A stretch of DNA of 51,759 nt from Escherichia phage vB_EcoD_Fulano1. Position numbers and translations under genes: made by a program. Below the pieces are notes generated by a model. That model did no database searches. It was not told where the DNA came from and was given only the letters and a program-made list of their open reading frames with translations. How positions within the stretch are numbered: the stretch's first letter is position 1; each line of letters begins with the position of its first letter. Shown piece by piece: positions 4,256 through 27,980 of this stretch. The stretch lies in sequence record OL539459.1. One strand, written 5' to 3'.

Positions 4256-5368
4256 ATGAAGGCAAAACAAAGATTTGATAGCGTCCAGGTTAAGGCGCAT
4301 TTTGATGATAATGGCTTTTTAGTGGATCGCCCAATTGTGGCGCGAATTGGTTTGCAGGAGTACCGCACACCGTATGGAATCAGACGAGAGTTCCGACCAG
4401 CGTCAGAAGTGTTTAAGGCGGATTCGCTTGCTACGTTCGCAGGCAAGCCGATCACTATCGGTCACGTCACAGTGACGCCAGATAATGCGGATCAGGTTGT
4501 TGTTGGTTCATGCGCTGGTGCTGGTGTTCCAAATGGTGTTGGCGTTGAAGTTCCGTTAAGTATTTACTCAAAGCGAGCAATTGAGAGCGCAAAAAAGAAA
4601 GACACGGCGGAAATTTCAGTTGGTTACACATCAATTGATATTGATAAACCAGGTTGGGGTAATAATAAAACTGGCGATTACTTGTTTGAGGAAGACATTA
4701 AGGAAGACTGGAAGCCTGATTCCCCTGATTGGGTTAAATTTGACGCCATTCAGACGAATATCCGTGTTAATCACATTGCACTTGTCTTTCGTGGTCGTGC
4801 TGGCATTGCCAAATTAAATCTTGATAGTGAACAAGATTTTCCGTATAGTGACGAGGTTCTAAATGACAAAGGAGATGAGGAAATGACAGTAAAAATTAAA
4901 CTTGATGGCGCGGTAGAATTTGATGTTCCAAAGGCCGTTGCTGATCATATTGAGGCGTTAAAGGCAGATGCAAAAGCTGCAACAGAAAAAGCTGATGGCC
5001 TTGAGGCCGAGCGCGACGCCCTGAAAACTAAAGTCGATGGCATTCCGGCGCAGATTGCAGAAGCTGTTAAGAAGGCAAAGACTGACGCAGAAGAGCACGC
5101 CAAGCTAGTTGCAGATGCAACTGAAATTGGCATCAAGTGTGACGGCTTGGATGCTAAAGCGATCAAAGTTGCTTACGTCAAAGAAGTCACTGGCGCTGAT
5201 ATTTCAGAAAAAGCCGATGCATATATTGAAACAGCTTTTGACCTTGCGAAGCAGTCTGATAAAATGGCGGCGCAGCGTAAATCTGTTAAGGGCGATTCTT
5301 TCGGGTCTGGCAAGAATGAAAAAACCGACTCCCTTGATCCGACTGCGCGTTTGAAAAAACTTAAATAA
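4256..5368 (+). CDS. putative capsid scaffold-like protein
   Basis: 370 aa; globular N-terminal half followed by long Ala/Lys/Glu-rich coiled-coil-like C-terminal half; lies between head morphogenesis gene and capsid gene. Confidence 0.45.
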   Translation: MKAKQRFDSVQVKAHFDDNGFLVDRPIVARIGLQEYRTPYGIRREFRPASEVFKADSLATFAGKPITIGHVTVTPDNADQVVVGSCAGAGVPNGVGVEVPLSIYSKRAIESAKKKDTAEISVGYTSIDIDKPGWGNNKTGDYLFEEDIKEDWKPDSPDWVKFDAIQTNIRVNHIALVFRGRAGIAKLNLDSEQDFPYSDEVLNDKGDEEMTVKIKLDGAVEFDVPKAVADHIEALKADAKAATEKADGLEAERDALKTKVDGIPAQIAEAVKKAKTDAEEHAKLVADATEIGIKCDGLDAKAIKVAYVKEVTGADISEKADAYIETAFDLAKQSDKMAAQRKSVKGDSFGSGKNEKTDSLDPTARLKKLK

Positions 5369-24052: not shown

Positions 24053-24076
24053 AAAGGGGCATTACGCCCCTTTTTC
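24053..24076. terminator. bidirectional intrinsic terminator
   Basis: stem GGGGC/GCCCC then T5; between ssb and convergent leftward gene. Confidence 0.7.
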
Positions 24077-24319
24077 ACTTTCAGCCATTCCAAGAACAGC
24101 AATCACCTTAACAGCAATTCTCTTTGCGAGTTCAGTTTGATGAGCGTTAAGTTTTCCAGTGGTCATTATTGACAGCATTCCGCTCATACTTCCAAGCCCG
24201 TTAAAATCTGACATTGCCGATTTCATAATTGATATTGGTGAGTGACCCTCACCAGCTATTGTGTGCGCTCTCTCTGAAAGGTCTTTAACTACCTGATCAA
24301 TTCCTTCACTTTTCGTCAT
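24062..24319 (-). CDS. hypothetical protein
   Basis: 85 aa ORF, last gene of leftward block. Confidence 0.35.
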   Translation of the reverse strand: MTKSEGIDQVVKDLSERAHTIAGEGHSPISIMKSAMSDFNGLGSMSGMLSIMTTGKLNAHQTELAKRIAVKVIAVLGMAESEKGA

Positions 24320-24797
24320 TTGCTTTTCCTTCAGGAGTTGATTGCTGTCCTGGCATTACAGGCCACGGGCTAATTGATTCCCTTTCTGCTACTGGCTTTT
24401 CAGGTTCAATTCCTAAAAACTTTCCTACAAAATCACCAACAAAATTTGAGCTATCGCTTACATAAACATGCATCCTGTCTAGATCTGCAACAGTAACGCT
24501 ATTTGGTGCGATCATGATCCTCTGTTGGTGAAAACCGATATACATCACATTAGCCGGACGCTCAAGAGTTCCCATATTTGGCGCAATTACGCCCATTATC
24601 CAACAATAATGAATGTTGCCATCAAGCGGCTCACATCCAGCGTTAAGCCAGTTTACTTTCTGGTGTGGGAATGCCATTGATGAATCAGTAGCATCACGCC
24701 GCAACGACCATTTAACGCCTCCAATCTCAATGATTTGTTTTGGCCTCATTCCGTTGAATTGAGTCACGCCAGCGCCATTTTGATTAATGTTTTGCAT
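24306..24797 (-). CDS. hypothetical protein
   Basis: 163 aa ORF, no motif recognised. Confidence 0.4.
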   Translation of the reverse strand: MQNINQNGAGVTQFNGMRPKQIIEIGGVKWSLRRDATDSSMAFPHQKVNWLNAGCEPLDGNIHYCWIMGVIAPNMGTLERPANVMYIGFHQQRIMIAPNSVTVADLDRMHVYVSDSSNFVGDFVGKFLGIEPEKPVAERESISPWPVMPGQQSTPEGKANDEK

Positions 24798-24811
24798 ATC
24801 GGTTCACCTTG

Positions 24812-25135
24812 TTACATTGATTTCATTTTACGCAATGCGCAGATACAAGCGGCAGCAAGATCGGTTAATTCTTTCTCAATGCCATGATGCGAGCCGTCTG
24901 CCTTTTCGGTCATTAGCTCTTTGTACTCCATTTCTACAATCGACATTAAGCCGCCAGACTTGTCAATGTGCGCGTCCCAGGTCTTAGGATAGTGCTTAGT
25001 TCTTTCAATAACACTTCCCATAACTGCATCATGTTCATGATCTCGATCATAATCTTTATCATGGCCATTTCCTCCAATTACTACTCGCGGCAAATGCACG
25101 CGCGGTAAATGATAGCCAGCGACAAGAATTTTCAT
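24812..25135 (-). CDS. hypothetical His-rich protein
   Basis: 107 aa, HLPRVHLPRV repeat and HDKDYDRDHEHD cluster; RBS AAGGGGA; terminator immediately upstream. Confidence 0.4.
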   Translation of the reverse strand: MKILVAGYHLPRVHLPRVVIGGNGHDKDYDRDHEHDAVMGSVIERTKHYPKTWDAHIDKSGGLMSIVEMEYKELMTEKADGSHHGIEKELTDLAAACICALRKMKSM

Positions 25136-25150
25136 GAGTATATCCCCTTA

Positions 25151-25176
25151 TAAAAAAGCGCCCCGAAAGGCGCTTG
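25151..25176 (-). terminator. intrinsic terminator (minus strand)
   Basis: minus strand AGCGCCTTTCGGGGCGCT then T6; between glycine-rich ORF and next gene. Confidence 0.6.
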
Positions 25177-25181
25177 GTTTA

Positions 25182-25559
25182 TTAGCAGCCGCAACAGCCA
25201 GTAGGCGGAGTCTGCGGAGTAGGCAACTTGAAGTTTACCAATTGCTCTACCTGGTTGATTTTGCAATTCAGTGCGGCTGTCTGGTTTGCCTGAGATAGAG
25301 CAAATCGCGCCTCCTGCAACTGAGCTTTCATATCGCAAATCAAAACAGCCTGAGAATCAGCAAACTGTTGGCGCATCAGATCTCGCGTTGCATTGCCTTG
25401 TCGCTCAATATTCAGGTTTGTCTCACAGCAACATCTCTCCGATGCAATTTGTGCCTGATAGGAACGCTCAAGAGCATTAACATCAGCAGCATTAATCGCA
25501 GCAACTGTCTGGTTAGTACCGCTAACAATCGCGGTATTCAGTCCGGCGAAACCTTGCAC
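25182..25559 (-). CDS. glycine-rich / Cys-cluster protein; true start unresolved (frame open to 25889)
   Basis: ORF track gives GTG 25559; same frame stays open and codon-periodic upstream to stop at 25890-25892, with RBS AAGAGGA (25869-25875) but no in-frame ATG/GTG/TTG. Confidence 0.4.
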   Translation of the reverse strand: MQGFAGLNTAIVSGTNQTVAAINAADVNALERSYQAQIASERCCCETNLNIERQGNATRDLMRQQFADSQAVLICDMKAQLQEARFALSQANQTAALNCKINQVEQLVNFKLPTPQTPPTGCCGC

Positions 25560-25992
25560 CGATGCAAGCAGGTTTTGCGTATTCTGGCTGGTAATGCCGT
25601 TAAAGGTTGATGCGGCGGAGCGCTCAACGGTAAGGTTTGTGGAGTTTTGGCCTTGCAGAGTTTGCAGCCCCAGGTTGTTTACGCCTGTCTGGATGTTATT
25701 AATACCATCAAGAACAGCGTTAGCACCGACAGCAACAGCAGCACCATCACCACCATAACCACCACGACCATTAAAGCCGTTACCAAACCATGACCCAATC
25801 AGGCCGCCAACAGCACCGCCAAGACCAGCCGCGCCAGCTTCGCCACCAAAACCACCACCAAGTAAATTCCTCTTTGACGTTAAAAAAAATTAAAAAAGTT
25901 TGCAACATTTATGTTACGACAAAGAGTATGCGCCAAATTACCAGGAATAGATATGAAACATTTGTAAGCGATATGTCAGCAAATGGCATAAA

Positions 25993-26024
25993 GACGAAAA
26001 AAGGCGCAGCCGTAGCCGCGCCTT
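25993..26024 (-). terminator. intrinsic terminator after side tail fibre gene
   Basis: minus strand stem AAGGCGC/GCGCCTT then T6. Confidence 0.6.
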
Positions 26025-26038
26025 GTGATTATTTTTTG

Positions 26039-27898
26039 TTAACTCTCAAGAGTTGTAGGCTTGTTGATCAATGCAGAAACAGCCGCTTTCAGTTCTTCAA
26101 CCTCCTTTTCAAGTTTTGATATTCTTTCTTTGTTTTCAACGTCACGCGCACGTAGAGCCTTTATTGCAGCTAGACCATCCATCAGCAGCGGATTAATGTC
26201 AAGAGTCATAATTCCAGATACAGAATCGCTATGAACATACTCCCTATCTATCATCATGGCATCTTGAGCTATTATTCCGCGTCTTGCGCTCCTTTCGTTG
26301 CTATCAAATGTATACCTAAATAATTTGAAGTTCATCCTTGATATATTATCAAGCGCGCATTCAACATTAAGATTTCCTTTAACATCTTTGAATCTAATAT
26401 CAGACGTTCCAGACTTCTGTAATGTGTTCCACGGCGTAGTTGTTTTTGCTACCTTCGGATCTCCTGTATTGTTATATCTAGTGTATGCATTCCCTGCCGT
26501 ATCAATCCAGAATTGAAATATCCTGTATTTATCATAGGATGATTGAAAACCGCCTCCATTTGTAGCAGCCCACGTAGTAAGACCTTCATTATCACTTATA
26601 AACTGACATCCGGAGTTTGTTATATCATTAGCAAGGTTTTTTACTTGACCAACTCCATATTTTGATGCTACAGGATGCCAAACCCAACCACTCCACCTCC
26701 ACGAATCAGAAACCTTGTCATAACTCCTTGAATAGTAAGATGGATCGTCAATAGGGTAATAATATTGATTTGCCTGTTCCGATCCGTTTGCTGTGGAGCT
26801 TGTAACCAGAAGAACACCGGCTTTTTGTACTGGATAGTTATTTTGAGGAGTTGCGTTAGCATTTGCACCCTGATAGTAATAACCAAAATTACTATAACCA
26901 TATAAGTCATTTAGGTTTCCGCTTAATACACCTCTTTGCTGCCTCATTAAATTTAGGTTGTCTCTTACCGACTCGACTGATTTTGATCCTGTTCCTCCTT
27001 TGCTTATCGGCAAAGCTATATCACTCTGTGATGTAGAATCCCACACACCCCAATTGCCATCATTTTTTACAAAAATTCGTTTTGTTCCATCAGCACTTGA
27101 AACAGCAGTCTCTCCAGATGCACCAGTGCCCTGCACCAACCTGTCTACGCTTAGGTTTTTTCTTGCTTCACCTTTATCTGCAACATCGCTAAGGTTGTTG
27201 TTTTTGTTAAGCATATTTTCCGGATTTATGCTATCTGCATATTCTTTCGCCTTATCTTCAGAAGCCTTAGCGGCATTTTTTGATGTCAGGGCGTCAGAAG
27301 CAGATCTGGCAGCTTCGCTTTTGCTTGTATTAGCCGCGATTTCAGAGTTTTTTGCATTAGTCTCTGACGCCTTTGCTGCGATCTTGCTCGCGTTGGCTGC
27401 GTTTTCTGACTCTTTGGCTTTAGTCTCTGACGCTTTTGCTTCGTTCTTTGAATTAAGCGCATCAGAGGCAGATCTTGCTGCGGCATCCTTACTTTGATTC
27501 GCAGACGCTGCGTTTTCTTCCACCTGTTTAGCCAAATCCTGATAATGCTTCCAATCAAACGTCTTAAAAAATTCCAGCGCTTCCCCGATCTCTGATTCTT
27601 TACTCTGATAGTAGCGCAATGTTTCAGCTACATCTTGAGCAAGCCCATCAACAGTTATTGAGTCATGAAGCAAGATTGCGTAATTTGAGCGAGTAACTAC
27701 CGCACCTCCAGTTGTAATTGCACGAATGCTTGTATCGTTGATAACTTCAGTTATTACAGCGATTTGTAACGGCTGAGTTAAGAATACAATGGTCGCACCA
27801 GGGCGAATGAGTGTTAGTTGCTCTCGCCATTTTGTGTCGTATCCAGTGATATAACCTTGTGCGTCCATTGACGCTTGTCCGGTTCTGTAAATTGCCAT
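26039..27898 (-). CDS. side tail fibre protein with C-terminal intramolecular chaperone-like domain
   Basis: trimmed to ATG 27898 behind GGGAGA; Ala/Ser/Lys repeat shaft, Trp/Tyr-rich distal domain, C-terminal coiled coil. Confidence 0.6.
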   Translation of the reverse strand: MAIYRTGQASMDAQGYITGYDTKWREQLTLIRPGATIVFLTQPLQIAVITEVINDTSIRAITTGGAVVTRSNYAILLHDSITVDGLAQDVAETLRYYQSKESEIGEALEFFKTFDWKHYQDLAKQVEENAASANQSKDAAARSASDALNSKNEAKASETKAKESENAANASKIAAKASETNAKNSEIAANTSKSEAARSASDALTSKNAAKASEDKAKEYADSINPENMLNKNNNLSDVADKGEARKNLSVDRLVQGTGASGETAVSSADGTKRIFVKNDGNWGVWDSTSQSDIALPISKGGTGSKSVESVRDNLNLMRQQRGVLSGNLNDLYGYSNFGYYYQGANANATPQNNYPVQKAGVLLVTSSTANGSEQANQYYYPIDDPSYYSRSYDKVSDSWRWSGWVWHPVASKYGVGQVKNLANDITNSGCQFISDNEGLTTWAATNGGGFQSSYDKYRIFQFWIDTAGNAYTRYNNTGDPKVAKTTTPWNTLQKSGTSDIRFKDVKGNLNVECALDNISRMNFKLFRYTFDSNERSARRGIIAQDAMMIDREYVHSDSVSGIMTLDINPLLMDGLAAIKALRARDVENKERISKLEKEVEELKAAVSALINKPTTLES

Positions 27899-27951
27899 GC
27901 GTTTTCTCCCATGTTGCATGTTAATGTCAATGCAGATAATAGCATTTGCTA

Positions 27952-27980
27952 AGGCCAAAAAAAACCCCGCAATGCGGGGT
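27952..27980 (-). terminator. intrinsic terminator (minus strand)
   Basis: minus strand CCCCGC-ATT-GCGGGG then T9. Confidence 0.75.

What the first reader, a model, noticed from the sequence alone, without database searches (positions are those of the whole stretch)
24062..25135. Unexplained leftward three-gene block between ssb and the side tail fibre
ORFs 24812..25135 (His-rich, HLPRVHLPRV repeat), 24306..24797 and 24062..24319 lie downstream of the glycine-rich ORF, separated from it by a terminator (25151-25176), and end at the bidirectional terminator shared with ssb. None matches a motif I can name. Their position next to the fibre gene is compatible with fibre-accessory or host-range functions, or with a moron-like insertion.
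Basis: inference. Interest (0 to 1): 0.5.

Follow-up and report, generated by a model that had tools for sequence, protein, structure and literature searches.

The report
Mobile four-gene phage accessory cassette
The three small leftward genes are real. They are the tail end of a four-gene accessory operon of unknown function that hops between unrelated virulent phages, so they are not fibre helpers, and only one of them has a weak link to a known enzyme family (MazG/HisE nucleotide pyrophosphatases).

Summary
I call them A (107 aa), B (163 aa) and C (85 aa). All are under purifying selection: dN/dS is 0.04 for B, 0.055 for C and 0.15 for the core of A.

They are not an independent three-gene block. 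With the upstream glycine-rich gene D they form a four-gene cassette, D-hairpin-A-B-C. Order and internal hairpin are kept in Hanrivervirus/Tlsvirus, Seurat/Nonagvirus, Eiauvirus, Sashavirus, Segzyvirus, an Aeromonas phage, PY100-like myoviruses and a 74-kb rIIB/PolA phage.

T1 lacks the cassette at the same stf/ssb junction. Its position differs between hosts: after the fibre, after capsid genes, between terminase and portal, or inside replication genes. It does not co-vary with fibre alleles. This supports a moron-like insertion and argues against a fibre accessory.

In this genome D has lost its start codon through a private 26-bp deletion. Function remains unknown.

The parts
24062..24319 (-). 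Gene C: an 85-aa orphan protein, the last gene of the cassette.
   Evidence: ORF. It matches phrog_7239 over 1-85 with E 2.7e-43. dN/dS is 0.055. Homologues follow B in all lineages. There is no significant Pfam or PDB match.
24306..24797 (-). Gene B: a 163-aa orphan alpha/beta protein. Its C-terminal tail (about residues 135-163) is disordered and holds a conserved P-[WFY]-P motif.
24812..25135 (-). Gene A: a 107-aa protein with a variable N-terminal tail and a conserved three-helix core.
   Evidence: ORF. It matches phrog_9157 with E 9e-49. Alignment is A1. The AF2 core, residues 33-106, has pLDDT 87-95.
25082..25111 (-). The HLPRVHLPRV repeat in A, residues 9-18. It is part of a fast-evolving N-terminal region that carries 2-3 [LM]P[RHK][VI] units, followed by a His/Asp-rich stretch.
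   Evidence: Sequence. Homologues carry 2-3 such units and up to HHHHHYHHGHH. dN/dS for residues 1-38 is 0.52.
24815..25030 (-). The MazG/HisE-like helical core of A, residues 36-107. The EXXE motif (E70, E73) is at 24917..24928 and the EXXD motif (E89, D92) is at 24860..24871.
25156..25175 (-). Intra-operon GC-rich hairpin with a T-run, between the stop of D and the ribosome-binding site of A. It acts as an attenuator or an RNA-stabilising element.
   Evidence: Found. A hairpin sits at the same place in 8 diverged lineages and is annotated as a terminator in phage Sasha. The T-run and the start of A are about 20 nt apart, which leaves no room for a promoter.
25182..25860 (-). Gene D, glycine-zipper and Q/N-rich, about 233 aa in relatives. 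It is the first gene of the cassette. Here it has no start codon because of a 26-bp deletion with its junction at 25861|25860.
   Evidence: Translation. Alignment to JLBYU09, KarlJaspers and JakobBernoulli shows the loss of ATGTCAGATATGACTTTACTCCCTAC. The junction is absent from 51 relatives and from IMG/VR. D alignment is A6. dN/dS is 0.05.
25862..26000 (-). Conserved leader upstream of D. It holds the ribosome-binding site of D (25866..25874) and probably the cassette promoter.
   Evidence: The region is nearly invariant among 4 relatives. No consensus sigma-70 site was scored there, so the promoter is inferred.
26001..26024 (-). Terminator of the side tail fibre gene. It marks the upstream boundary of the cassette.
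   Evidence: 10-bp stem, 7 GC pairs, T-run.
24053..24073 (.). Hairpin shared by ssb (plus strand) and C (minus strand). It marks the downstream boundary of the cassette.
   Evidence: scores it as a terminator on the plus strand only. The stop codon of C, 24062..24064, lies in the loop.

Best explanation
ORFs A, B and C are the promoter-distal three genes of a self-contained four-gene accessory operon, D-hairpin-A-B-C, that moves horizontally among virulent phages of Enterobacterales and Aeromonas. In Hanriverviruses it sits as a moron-type insertion between the side-tail-fibre terminator and the ssb terminator.

How it is expressed (inferred from the layout). Transcription starts upstream of D. 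A conserved GC-rich hairpin after D lets only part of it continue, so D is made in excess and A, B and C are made at lower levels, translationally coupled.

What the proteins are.
- A is most likely a divergent all-alpha (MazG/HisE-type) nucleoside-triphosphate pyrophosphohydrolase. Four invariant acidic residues, E70, E73, E89 and D92, lie on an antiparallel helical hairpin and would hold Mg2+ to cleave the alpha-beta phosphoanhydride of an unidentified nucleotide. It carries a fast-evolving tail with [LM]P[RHK][VI] repeats and a His/Asp-rich stretch.
- B is a constrained orphan alpha/beta protein with a disordered tail holding a P-[WFY]-P motif. It is the gene most tightly linked to D, so it is probably D's binding partner.
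- C is a small orphan protein.

Where it acts (inferred). The cassette is dispensable and independent of virion type, so it most likely works inside the infected cell against the host or competing phages, for example in counter-defence or superinfection exclusion. It is unlikely to act on the fibre.

Status of each step. Shown: the genes are real, they form a four-gene cassette, the cassette is mobile, and it is not linked to the fibre. Moderately supported: the fold of A. Inferred only: enzymatic activity, B-D pairing, attenuation, and the biological role.

In this genome D is knocked out by a private deletion, so only A, B and C can be made.
For: Cassette unity.
- The order D, A, B, C holds in nearly all of 46 loci and in annotated records of CAjan, eiAU-183, GottfriedDienst, YenM_22, Sasha, Segz_1, phiWae15 and PY100.
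- It also holds in a 73.8-kb rIIB/PolA contig.
- The Yersinia gp31 is a divergent A (hhalign probability 94.6%).
- A hairpin between D and A is conserved in 8 lineages.

Insertion and mobility.
- T1 lacks the cassette at the homologous junction.
- Terminators lie on both sides.
- The position in the genome differs between lineages.
- No homologue of B occurs in 185,579 bacterial and archaeal species genomes.

Dispensability.
- D has lost its start here.
- D has a nonsense codon in JakobBernoulli.
- A D::B fusion with loss of A exists (P0089).
- Only remnants of C remain in Tls.
- Only D and B are present in L050.

Selection. dN/dS is 0.04-0.15 for B, C, D and the core of A.

Fold of A. From the DSSP helices 62-80 and 83-106, E73 and E89 lie about 7 and 6 residues from the turn, and E70 and D92 about 10 and 9 residues, so the pairs face each other.

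Not fibre-linked. Stf identity is 28-82% or the gene is absent, while D, B and C are 95-100% identical.
Against: - The assignment of A to the MazG family is sub-threshold. No member reaches Pfam's gathering score.
- Profile searches against PDB sequences are not significant (2p06 E 0.24-0.7).
- No promoter was detected upstream of D.
- In five siphovirus lineages the cassette does sit right after the fibre or tail genes, so late co-expression with virion genes remains possible.
- Nothing identifies a substrate or a target, or shows that B binds D.
- The PADLOC scan gave only non-significant hits, E >= 0.0068, but PADLOC holds defence systems, not anti-defence proteins.
Confidence: 0.55

Rival explanations
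1. Fibre or virion accessory module. D is an abundant fibrous virion or assembly protein, and A, B and C are low-abundance chaperones or maturation factors for D or for the side tail fibre. The arrangement would resemble pilus and tail operons, where a hairpin follows the major subunit gene.
For: - The cassette directly follows the lateral fibre or tail gene in Hanrivervirus, Tlsvirus, Seurat/Nonagvirus and Eiauvirus.
- In T5-like Epseptimavirus an Stf homologue with an S74 C-terminus is followed by remnants of D.
- D is Gly/Q/N/T/A-rich and looks like a coiled coil. Most lineages have Cys clusters (CCCE, C-terminal GCC) that could cross-link chains.
- The conserved hairpin implies much more D than A, B and C.
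Against: - The cassette is far from tail genes in the PY100 myovirus, at 10-12 kb against structural genes at 21-42 kb.
- In Sasha it lies between TerL/HNH and portal, in Segz_1 after the capsid genes, and in the 74-kb contig among replication genes.
- It therefore occurs with at least two tail types, sipho and myo, and probably also in an N4-like podovirus.
- It does not co-vary with the fibre allele.
- The window's fibre has its own S74 intramolecular chaperone domain.
- T1 makes fibres without the cassette.
- The D in L048 has no Cys at all.
Confidence: 0.17
2. Membrane-directed exclusion or lysis-timing module. D inserts into or perturbs the inner membrane through its N-terminal glycine zipper, to block superinfecting DNA entry or to tune lysis. 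B shields that hydrophobic segment before insertion, and A and C regulate the process.
For: - D has an invariant N-terminus, M-[ST]-D-M-x-L-[LI]-P, followed by 2-11 GxxxGxxxG motifs with KD19 hydrophobicity of 1.1-1.65.
- The D profile aligns weakly (E 0.15) with the influenza HA2 fusion peptide plus coiled coil.
- D and B are the minimal co-occurring pair.
- In the 74-kb phage the cassette lies next to rIIB-type membrane and exclusion genes.
- The cassette is dispensable and patchy in distribution, as exclusion genes are.
Against: - The HA2 match is not significant.
- Hydrophobicity is below that of ordinary transmembrane helices.
- D has no signal peptide or lipobox.
- No part matches any known Sie, Imm, Cor, Llp, holin or spanin family.
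- A role for a pyrophosphohydrolase-like subunit is not obvious.
- In this genome D is dead while A, B and C stay intact.
Confidence: 0.18
3. The ORFs are decaying or non-functional filler between convergent transcription units.
For: The cassette is often damaged. D has no start here. D has a nonsense codon in JakobBernoulli. D::B fusions exist. Only remnants of C remain in Tls and in several MG0656xx records.
Against: - Purifying selection is strong (dN/dS 0.04-0.15).
- All three have intact ribosome-binding sites.
- The reading frames are conserved at 30-60% protein identity across families of phages.
- The deletion in D is private to this genome.
Confidence: 0.03

Closest known systems
All-alpha NTP pyrophosphohydrolases (MazG PF03819; HisE/PRA-PH PF01503; AF_0060-like, PDB 2p06; DCTPP1)
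   Different: No member reaches Pfam's gathering score. Only three helices are modelled where four or five are expected. A carries an N-terminal tail with proline-basic repeats and poly-His that I do not know from this superfamily. It is always encoded in a fixed operon with three orphan genes. No activity is known.
Morons of tailed phages: autonomous promoter-gene-terminator units inserted between conserved genes, as defined for lambdoid phages (my knowledge)
   Same: The cassette is present or absent at an otherwise syntenic junction when T1 is compared with Hanrivervirus. It is bracketed by terminators, is dispensable, and is shared by unrelated phages at different sites.
   Different: It has four co-adapted genes with an internal attenuator, where a typical moron has one or two. 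It occurs in strictly virulent phages and not in prophages (no hit in bacterial genomes). Its promoter was not demonstrated. The GC content of A-B-C (43.0%) equals that of the genome (43.9%), and only D differs (49.9%).
Tail fibre assembly proteins and chaperones (Tfa, gp38, S74 intramolecular chaperones)
   Same: In several siphoviruses the cassette sits immediately downstream of a lateral tail fibre gene.
   Different: There is no sequence or fold similarity. It is not linked to fibres in other lineages and does not co-vary with the fibre's C-terminus. The fibre in this window already has an S74 domain.
T6SS Eag (DUF1795) chaperones bound to glycine-zipper transmembrane segments of effectors. 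This is an analogy only.

Membership tests
MazG/HisE all-alpha NTP pyrophosphohydrolase superfamily (gene A) | An EXXE motif, a spacer of 12-28 residues and an EXXD acidic motif for Mg2+ binding | tested here: met
   E70-Y-K-E73, 15 residues, then E89-L-T-D92. All four residues are invariant in 28 homologues. The Yersinia homologue keeps E-x-x-E and E-L-T-E. The L048 homologue keeps MEYQE and ELTD, while E68 is lost.
MazG/HisE all-alpha NTP pyrophosphohydrolase superfamily (gene A) | A significant match to the family profile, at Pfam's gathering score | tested here: not met
   The window protein has no hit. Among homologues the best MazG score is 18.1 bits against a cut-off of 22, and the best PRA-PH E-value is 4.4e-4, with scores of about 15.5 bits against 21.3. 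Of 28 members, 8 and 3 give sub-threshold hits.
MazG/HisE all-alpha NTP pyrophosphohydrolase superfamily (gene A) | A four-helix-bundle fold resembling solved members | tested here: inconclusive
MazG/HisE all-alpha NTP pyrophosphohydrolase superfamily (gene A) | Mg2+-dependent hydrolysis of (d)NTP to (d)NMP and PPi | not testable with these tools
   This needs a biochemical assay.
Moron-type accessory insertion | Present or absent at an otherwise conserved junction in related genomes | tested here: met
   In T1 the order is ssb ST27, bidirectional terminator, fibre ST26, with no homologues of D, A, B or C. Hanriverviruses carry about 1.95 kb more at this junction.
Moron-type accessory insertion | Its own terminator and its own promoter | tested here: inconclusive
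   Terminators lie at 26024..26001 and 24053..24073, with an internal hairpin at 25175..25156. No sigma-70 consensus site was found in the conserved leader 25862..26000.
Moron-type accessory insertion | Found in unrelated phages at different genomic positions (horizontal mobility) | tested here: met
Tail fibre chaperone or assembly protein | Homology to Tfa, gp38 or S74 families, or obligatory linkage and co-variation with a fibre gene | tested here: not met
   No family hits. The cassette is unlinked to fibres in Sasha, Segz_1, PY100 and L048. Stf varies while the cassette stays constant.
Known anti-phage defence system proteins (PADLOC) | A match to a defence-system profile | tested here: not met
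   Only non-significant hits, E >= 0.0068.

The most novel reading that the evidence does not exclude
D-A-B-C is an undescribed multi-component phage system carried by sipho-, myo- and probably N4-like virulent phages. It would consist of an abundant glycine-zipper coiled-coil protein (D) with a dedicated partner of novel fold (B), a MazG-like nucleotide-hydrolysing subunit with a metal-binding poly-His tail (A), and a small adaptor (C). It would act in the infected cell as a new kind of superinfection-exclusion or counter-defence device.
Probability: 0.3. Interest if true: 0.65.

Novelty: new variant of a known kind. Interest (0 to 1): 0.4.

Why it matters
This does not bear on a long-standing question, but it is a clean, testable unit. 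It is a four-gene operon with conserved internal regulation that is shared by very different virulent coliphages, Salmonella, Yersinia, Edwardsiella and Aeromonas phages, including BASEL collection members Bas06, Bas07 and Bas21. It is absent from bacteria, and no function is assigned to any part.

Treating the genes as one cassette corrects scattered annotations such as 'TerL', 'matrix protein', 'sugar-binding protein', 'tail fiber protein' and 'transcriptional regulator'. It also points deletion and complementation experiments at the right unit.

If it proves to be a counter-defence or exclusion system, it would add a new family with a MazG-like component. If it proves to be housekeeping nucleotide sanitation plus orphan genes, it is ordinary.

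Tried and rejected
- Pfam, NCBIfam, PADLOC and PDB-sequence searches with the single proteins gave nothing significant.
- Profile-against-PDB searches for A, B, C and D gave only noise. The hits were PA2G4, the coiled-coil neck of a C-type lectin, a dockerin-like hit for C at E 0.28, and HA2 for D at E 0.15.
- I first read B as a Cys/His metalloenzyme from the close alignment. I dropped that when the wider alignment showed these residues are not conserved.
- P0166, a 1971-aa 'homologue' of B, is a tandem-repeat artefact.
- Literature searches (BASEL papers, accessory-gene screens, eiAU, Henu8, the Zorya/Druantia paper, the Fulano1 announcement) found no functional data.
- The PY100 virion-proteome paper is not held.
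- The 'TerL' label on B is an annotation artefact. It sits on an 89-aa fragment of B in phage herni, whose record begins and ends within this cassette.
- I considered D as an i-spanin-like or collagen-like cystine-knot protein. I set that aside because the Cys residues are missing in L048 and T1-type phages have their own spanin (my knowledge).

Full report
**Identity of the window.** The region is about 95% identical in nucleotide sequence to Hanriverviruses (Drexlerviridae, Tempevirinae) such as JLBYU09, JakobBernoulli (Bas07) and damhaus. Proteins identical in length and cluster, FULANO1_32 and FULANO1_33, come from a 51,759-bp contig, which is the length of this window. The window is therefore probably Escherichia phage vB_EcoD_Fulano1, known only from a genome announcement (PMC9119101).

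**Checking the observation.** I call them A (24812..25135, 107 aa), B (24306..24797, 163 aa) and C (24062..24319, 85 aa).
- Each has a Shine-Dalgarno sequence. B and C overlap by 14 nt, and A and B are 14 nt apart.
- HLPRVHLPRV is residues 9-18 of A.
- The hairpin between the glycine-rich gene and A (25175..25156) and the hairpin shared with ssb (24053..24073) are both found. The second scores as a terminator only on the plus strand, and the stop codon of C lies in its loop.

These are real genes.
- Each matches a PHROG family of unknown function over its full length.
- tblastn finds them in 114, 139 and 161 phage records.
- Nei-Gojobori dN/dS among 9-10 close relatives is 0.04 for B, 0.055 for C and 0.39 for A. 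Within A it is 0.52 for residues 1-38 and 0.15 for residues 39-107.

**The unit has four genes, not three.** In every annotated relative the three genes are preceded, on the same strand, by a glycine-rich gene of about 233 aa (phrog_9288). I call it D. The order D, A, B, C recurs in many lineages:
- Seuratvirus CAjan, gp21-24
- Seuratvirus GottfriedDienst, where D is fragmented
- Eiauvirus, gp08-11
- Yersinia phage vB_YenM_22, gp30-33
- Sashavirus, gp07-10
- Segzyvirus, gp24-27
- Aeromonas phage phiWae15
- PY100, ORF29-32
- a 73.8-kb contig, L048

A tblastn survey of 46 fetched loci shows the same order almost without exception. The Yersinia gene in the A position is too diverged for BLAST, but hhalign recognises it with 94.6% probability.

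A GC-rich hairpin, usually followed by a T-run and then the ribosome-binding site of A, lies between D and A in all eight lineages examined. This holds even though the proteins are only 35-60% identical. The annotators of phage Sasha independently mark it as a terminator.

In the window, about 20 nt separate the hairpin's T-run from the start of A, which leaves no room for a promoter. A, B and C must therefore be transcribed by read-through from upstream of D. This last step is inference.

**It is an insertion, mobile and dispensable.** T1 has ssb (ST27), a bidirectional terminator and the tail fibre gene (ST26) directly adjacent, and it has no homologue of D, A, B or C. In the window the cassette fills the roughly 1.95 kb between the fibre terminator (26024..26001) and the ssb hairpin.

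Elsewhere the cassette sits in different places:
- between TerL/HNH and portal in Sasha
- after the capsid genes in Segz_1
- in an island 10 kb from the structural genes of the PY100 myovirus, converging on dam-ssb
- inside a co-oriented block with rIIB, AAA+/DUF2201, a Dda-like helicase, PolA and dCTP deaminase in L048. I read L048 as N4-like, which is my inference.

No homologue of B exists in one genome from each of 185,579 bacterial and archaeal species. An exhaustive profile search of 1.84 billion proteins returns only 48 cluster representatives. All are single-domain proteins of 130-210 aa or shorter fragments, apart from one repeat artefact.

Natural damage to the cassette is common:
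- a nonsense codon in the D of JakobBernoulli
- a D::B fusion with loss of A in the Seurat/WildeMaa lineage (P0089)
- remnants of C only in Tls
- a locus with only D and B, L050

**Link to the fibre.** Adjacency to a lateral fibre holds for Hanrivervirus/Tlsvirus, Seurat/Nonagvirus and Eiauvirus. In T5-like Epseptimaviruses an Stf homologue is followed by decayed fragments of D. Against a fibre role, the cassette occurs away from fibres in at least four other lineages, and with at least two tail morphologies (sipho and myo), probably also in an N4-like podovirus. Among Hanriverviruses the Stf gene varies from 28 to 82% identity or is replaced, while D, B and C remain 95-100% identical. A fibre chaperone or host-range factor would be expected to co-vary with the fibre.

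**Gene A.** The alignment of 28 homologues shows two parts.
- The N-terminal part is variable. It has 2-3 [LM]P[RHK][VI] units followed by a His/Asp/Glu-rich stretch, up to HHHHHYHHGHH.
- The core is conserved, with invariant R45, P50, W53, E68, E70, Y71, E73, E89, D92 and the run LAAAC.
- E70-x-x-E73, 15 residues, then E89-x-x-D92 is the acidic signature of all-alpha NTP pyrophosphohydrolases (my knowledge of the family).

The AlphaFold model has a confident three-helix core, residues 33-47, 62-80 and 83-106. From those boundaries the two acidic pairs lie at matching heights on the antiparallel hairpin.

Of 28 homologues, 8 give sub-threshold Pfam hits to PRA-PH and 3 to MazG, all on this segment, and none reaches the gathering score. 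Profile searches of PDB sequences are not significant. Two sets of GenBank annotators call the protein 'putative pyrophosphatase'.

My reading is that A is probably a divergent MazG/HisE-like enzyme, with a probability of about 0.6. Membership is not established.

The close alignment suggested conserved Cys and His residues, but the wide alignment removes them. What remains is G27, L32, G69, E79, P81, F89, Y112, F123 and a P-[WFY]-P motif in the acidic tail. That pattern looks like a binding or structural protein more than an enzyme.

B is the gene most tightly associated with D, as the D+B-only locus and the D::B fusions show.

**Gene C.** It has no informative match. The conserved positions are R17, D38, G55, Q61, R67 and K71. 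One annotator's label of 'transcriptional regulator' has no support that I could find.

**Gene D.** It has an invariant N-terminus, M-[ST]-D-M-x-L-[LI]-P. This is followed by a glycine-zipper segment with 2-11 GxxxGxxxG motifs and KD19 hydrophobicity of 1.1-1.65, then a Q/N/T/A-rich region. Most lineages have an ERCCCET motif and some end in GCC. The L048 version has no Cys at all.

The only profile hint is a non-significant alignment (E 0.15) of the N-terminus to the influenza HA2 fusion peptide and coiled coil. I treat that as an analogy suggesting membrane activity and nothing more.

**State of the cassette in this genome.** Compared with JLBYU09, KarlJaspers and JakobBernoulli, the window lacks 26 bp (ATGTCAGATATGACTTTACTCCCTAC), with the junction at 25861|25860. 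The deletion removes the start codon of D and its conserved N-terminus. The first in-frame start left is a GTG at 25559, which would give a 125-aa C-terminal fragment.

The junction sequence occurs in none of 51 relatives in the phage collection and nowhere in IMG/VR. The lesion is therefore private to this genome. It may be recent, acquired during laboratory propagation, or an assembly error. A, B and C are intact.

**Verdict.**
- The three ORFs are the distal part of a conserved, mobile, dispensable four-gene operon, present only in virulent phages and uncharacterised.
- One component is plausibly a MazG-like pyrophosphohydrolase. The other three are orphans, and one of them has no detectable fold relative.
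- I rate the mechanistic picture beyond that as inference: an intracellular role directed at the host or at competing phages, a D-B core, and attenuated expression of A, B and C.
- Interest is moderate (0.4). It is a well-delimited unknown worth a knockout, not a surprise.

Noticed in passing
window 25860-25886 (minus strand): The glycine-rich gene D has lost its ATG and first 8 codons through a 26-bp deletion that is private to this genome. The retained ribosome-binding site (25866..25874) now faces an out-of-frame TTG at 25861, which opens a 20-aa hydrophobic ORF, MVVVLVAKLARLVLAVLLAA.
   Followed up: yes
L001 (JakobBernoulli, MZ501079) about 5100-5200; L004/L006; P0089: D is damaged independently in several relatives. 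JakobBernoulli has a CAA-to-TAA nonsense codon. D is fragmented in GottfriedDienst. The Seurat/WildeMaa lineage has a D(N-half)::B(C-half) fusion with loss of A.
   Followed up: partly
L050 2026-3638 (Logan SRR33471210_37861): This is a minimal variant. A 364-aa D-like protein with an extra Pro/Arg/Tyr-rich N-terminal extension is followed by B only, with no A and no C. It suggests that D and B are the core pair of the cassette.
   Followed up: partly
L004 8859-9062 (CAjan gp25); L011 7204-7368 (Sasha, unannotated): A fifth small Cys-rich gene (MC..CCLG.PATQ..) follows C in Seuratvirus and Sashavirus. It is absent from the window.
   Followed up: no
L007 2650-5340 (Salmonella phage polluks, T5-like): polluks_39 is a homologue of the window's side tail fibre and includes the S74 C-terminal chaperone domain. 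It is followed by frame-broken remnants of D and no A-B-C. The fibre and D appear to have been transferred together into T5-like phages, after which D decayed.
   Followed up: partly
GenBank records herni, JLBYU09/41, Salmonella phage 36, phiE31-2: B is annotated as 'TerL' or 'matrix protein', C as 'transcriptional regulator', and D as 'sugar-binding protein' or 'tail fiber protein'. None of these labels is supported here. 'TerL' appears on an 89-aa fragment of B in herni, whose record begins and ends within the cassette.
   Followed up: partly
phage collection records MG0656xx ('Campylobacter phage A16a', 'C4', 'A118' and others): Nineteen records labelled Campylobacter jejuni phages are about 95% identical to E. 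coli Hanriverviruses in this region, so the host label looks doubtful. A 'Chlamydia trachomatis' protein, CRI74227.1, is a member of A's 90%-identity cluster and comes from a contig of about 51 kb, so it is probably a phage contaminant.
   Followed up: no
window 26039-27958 (minus strand): The side tail fibre has an N-terminal region of KASE/NAKxSE-type repeats and a C-terminal S74-like intramolecular chaperone segment. Its allele varies widely among relatives that are otherwise about 95% identical.
   Followed up: no
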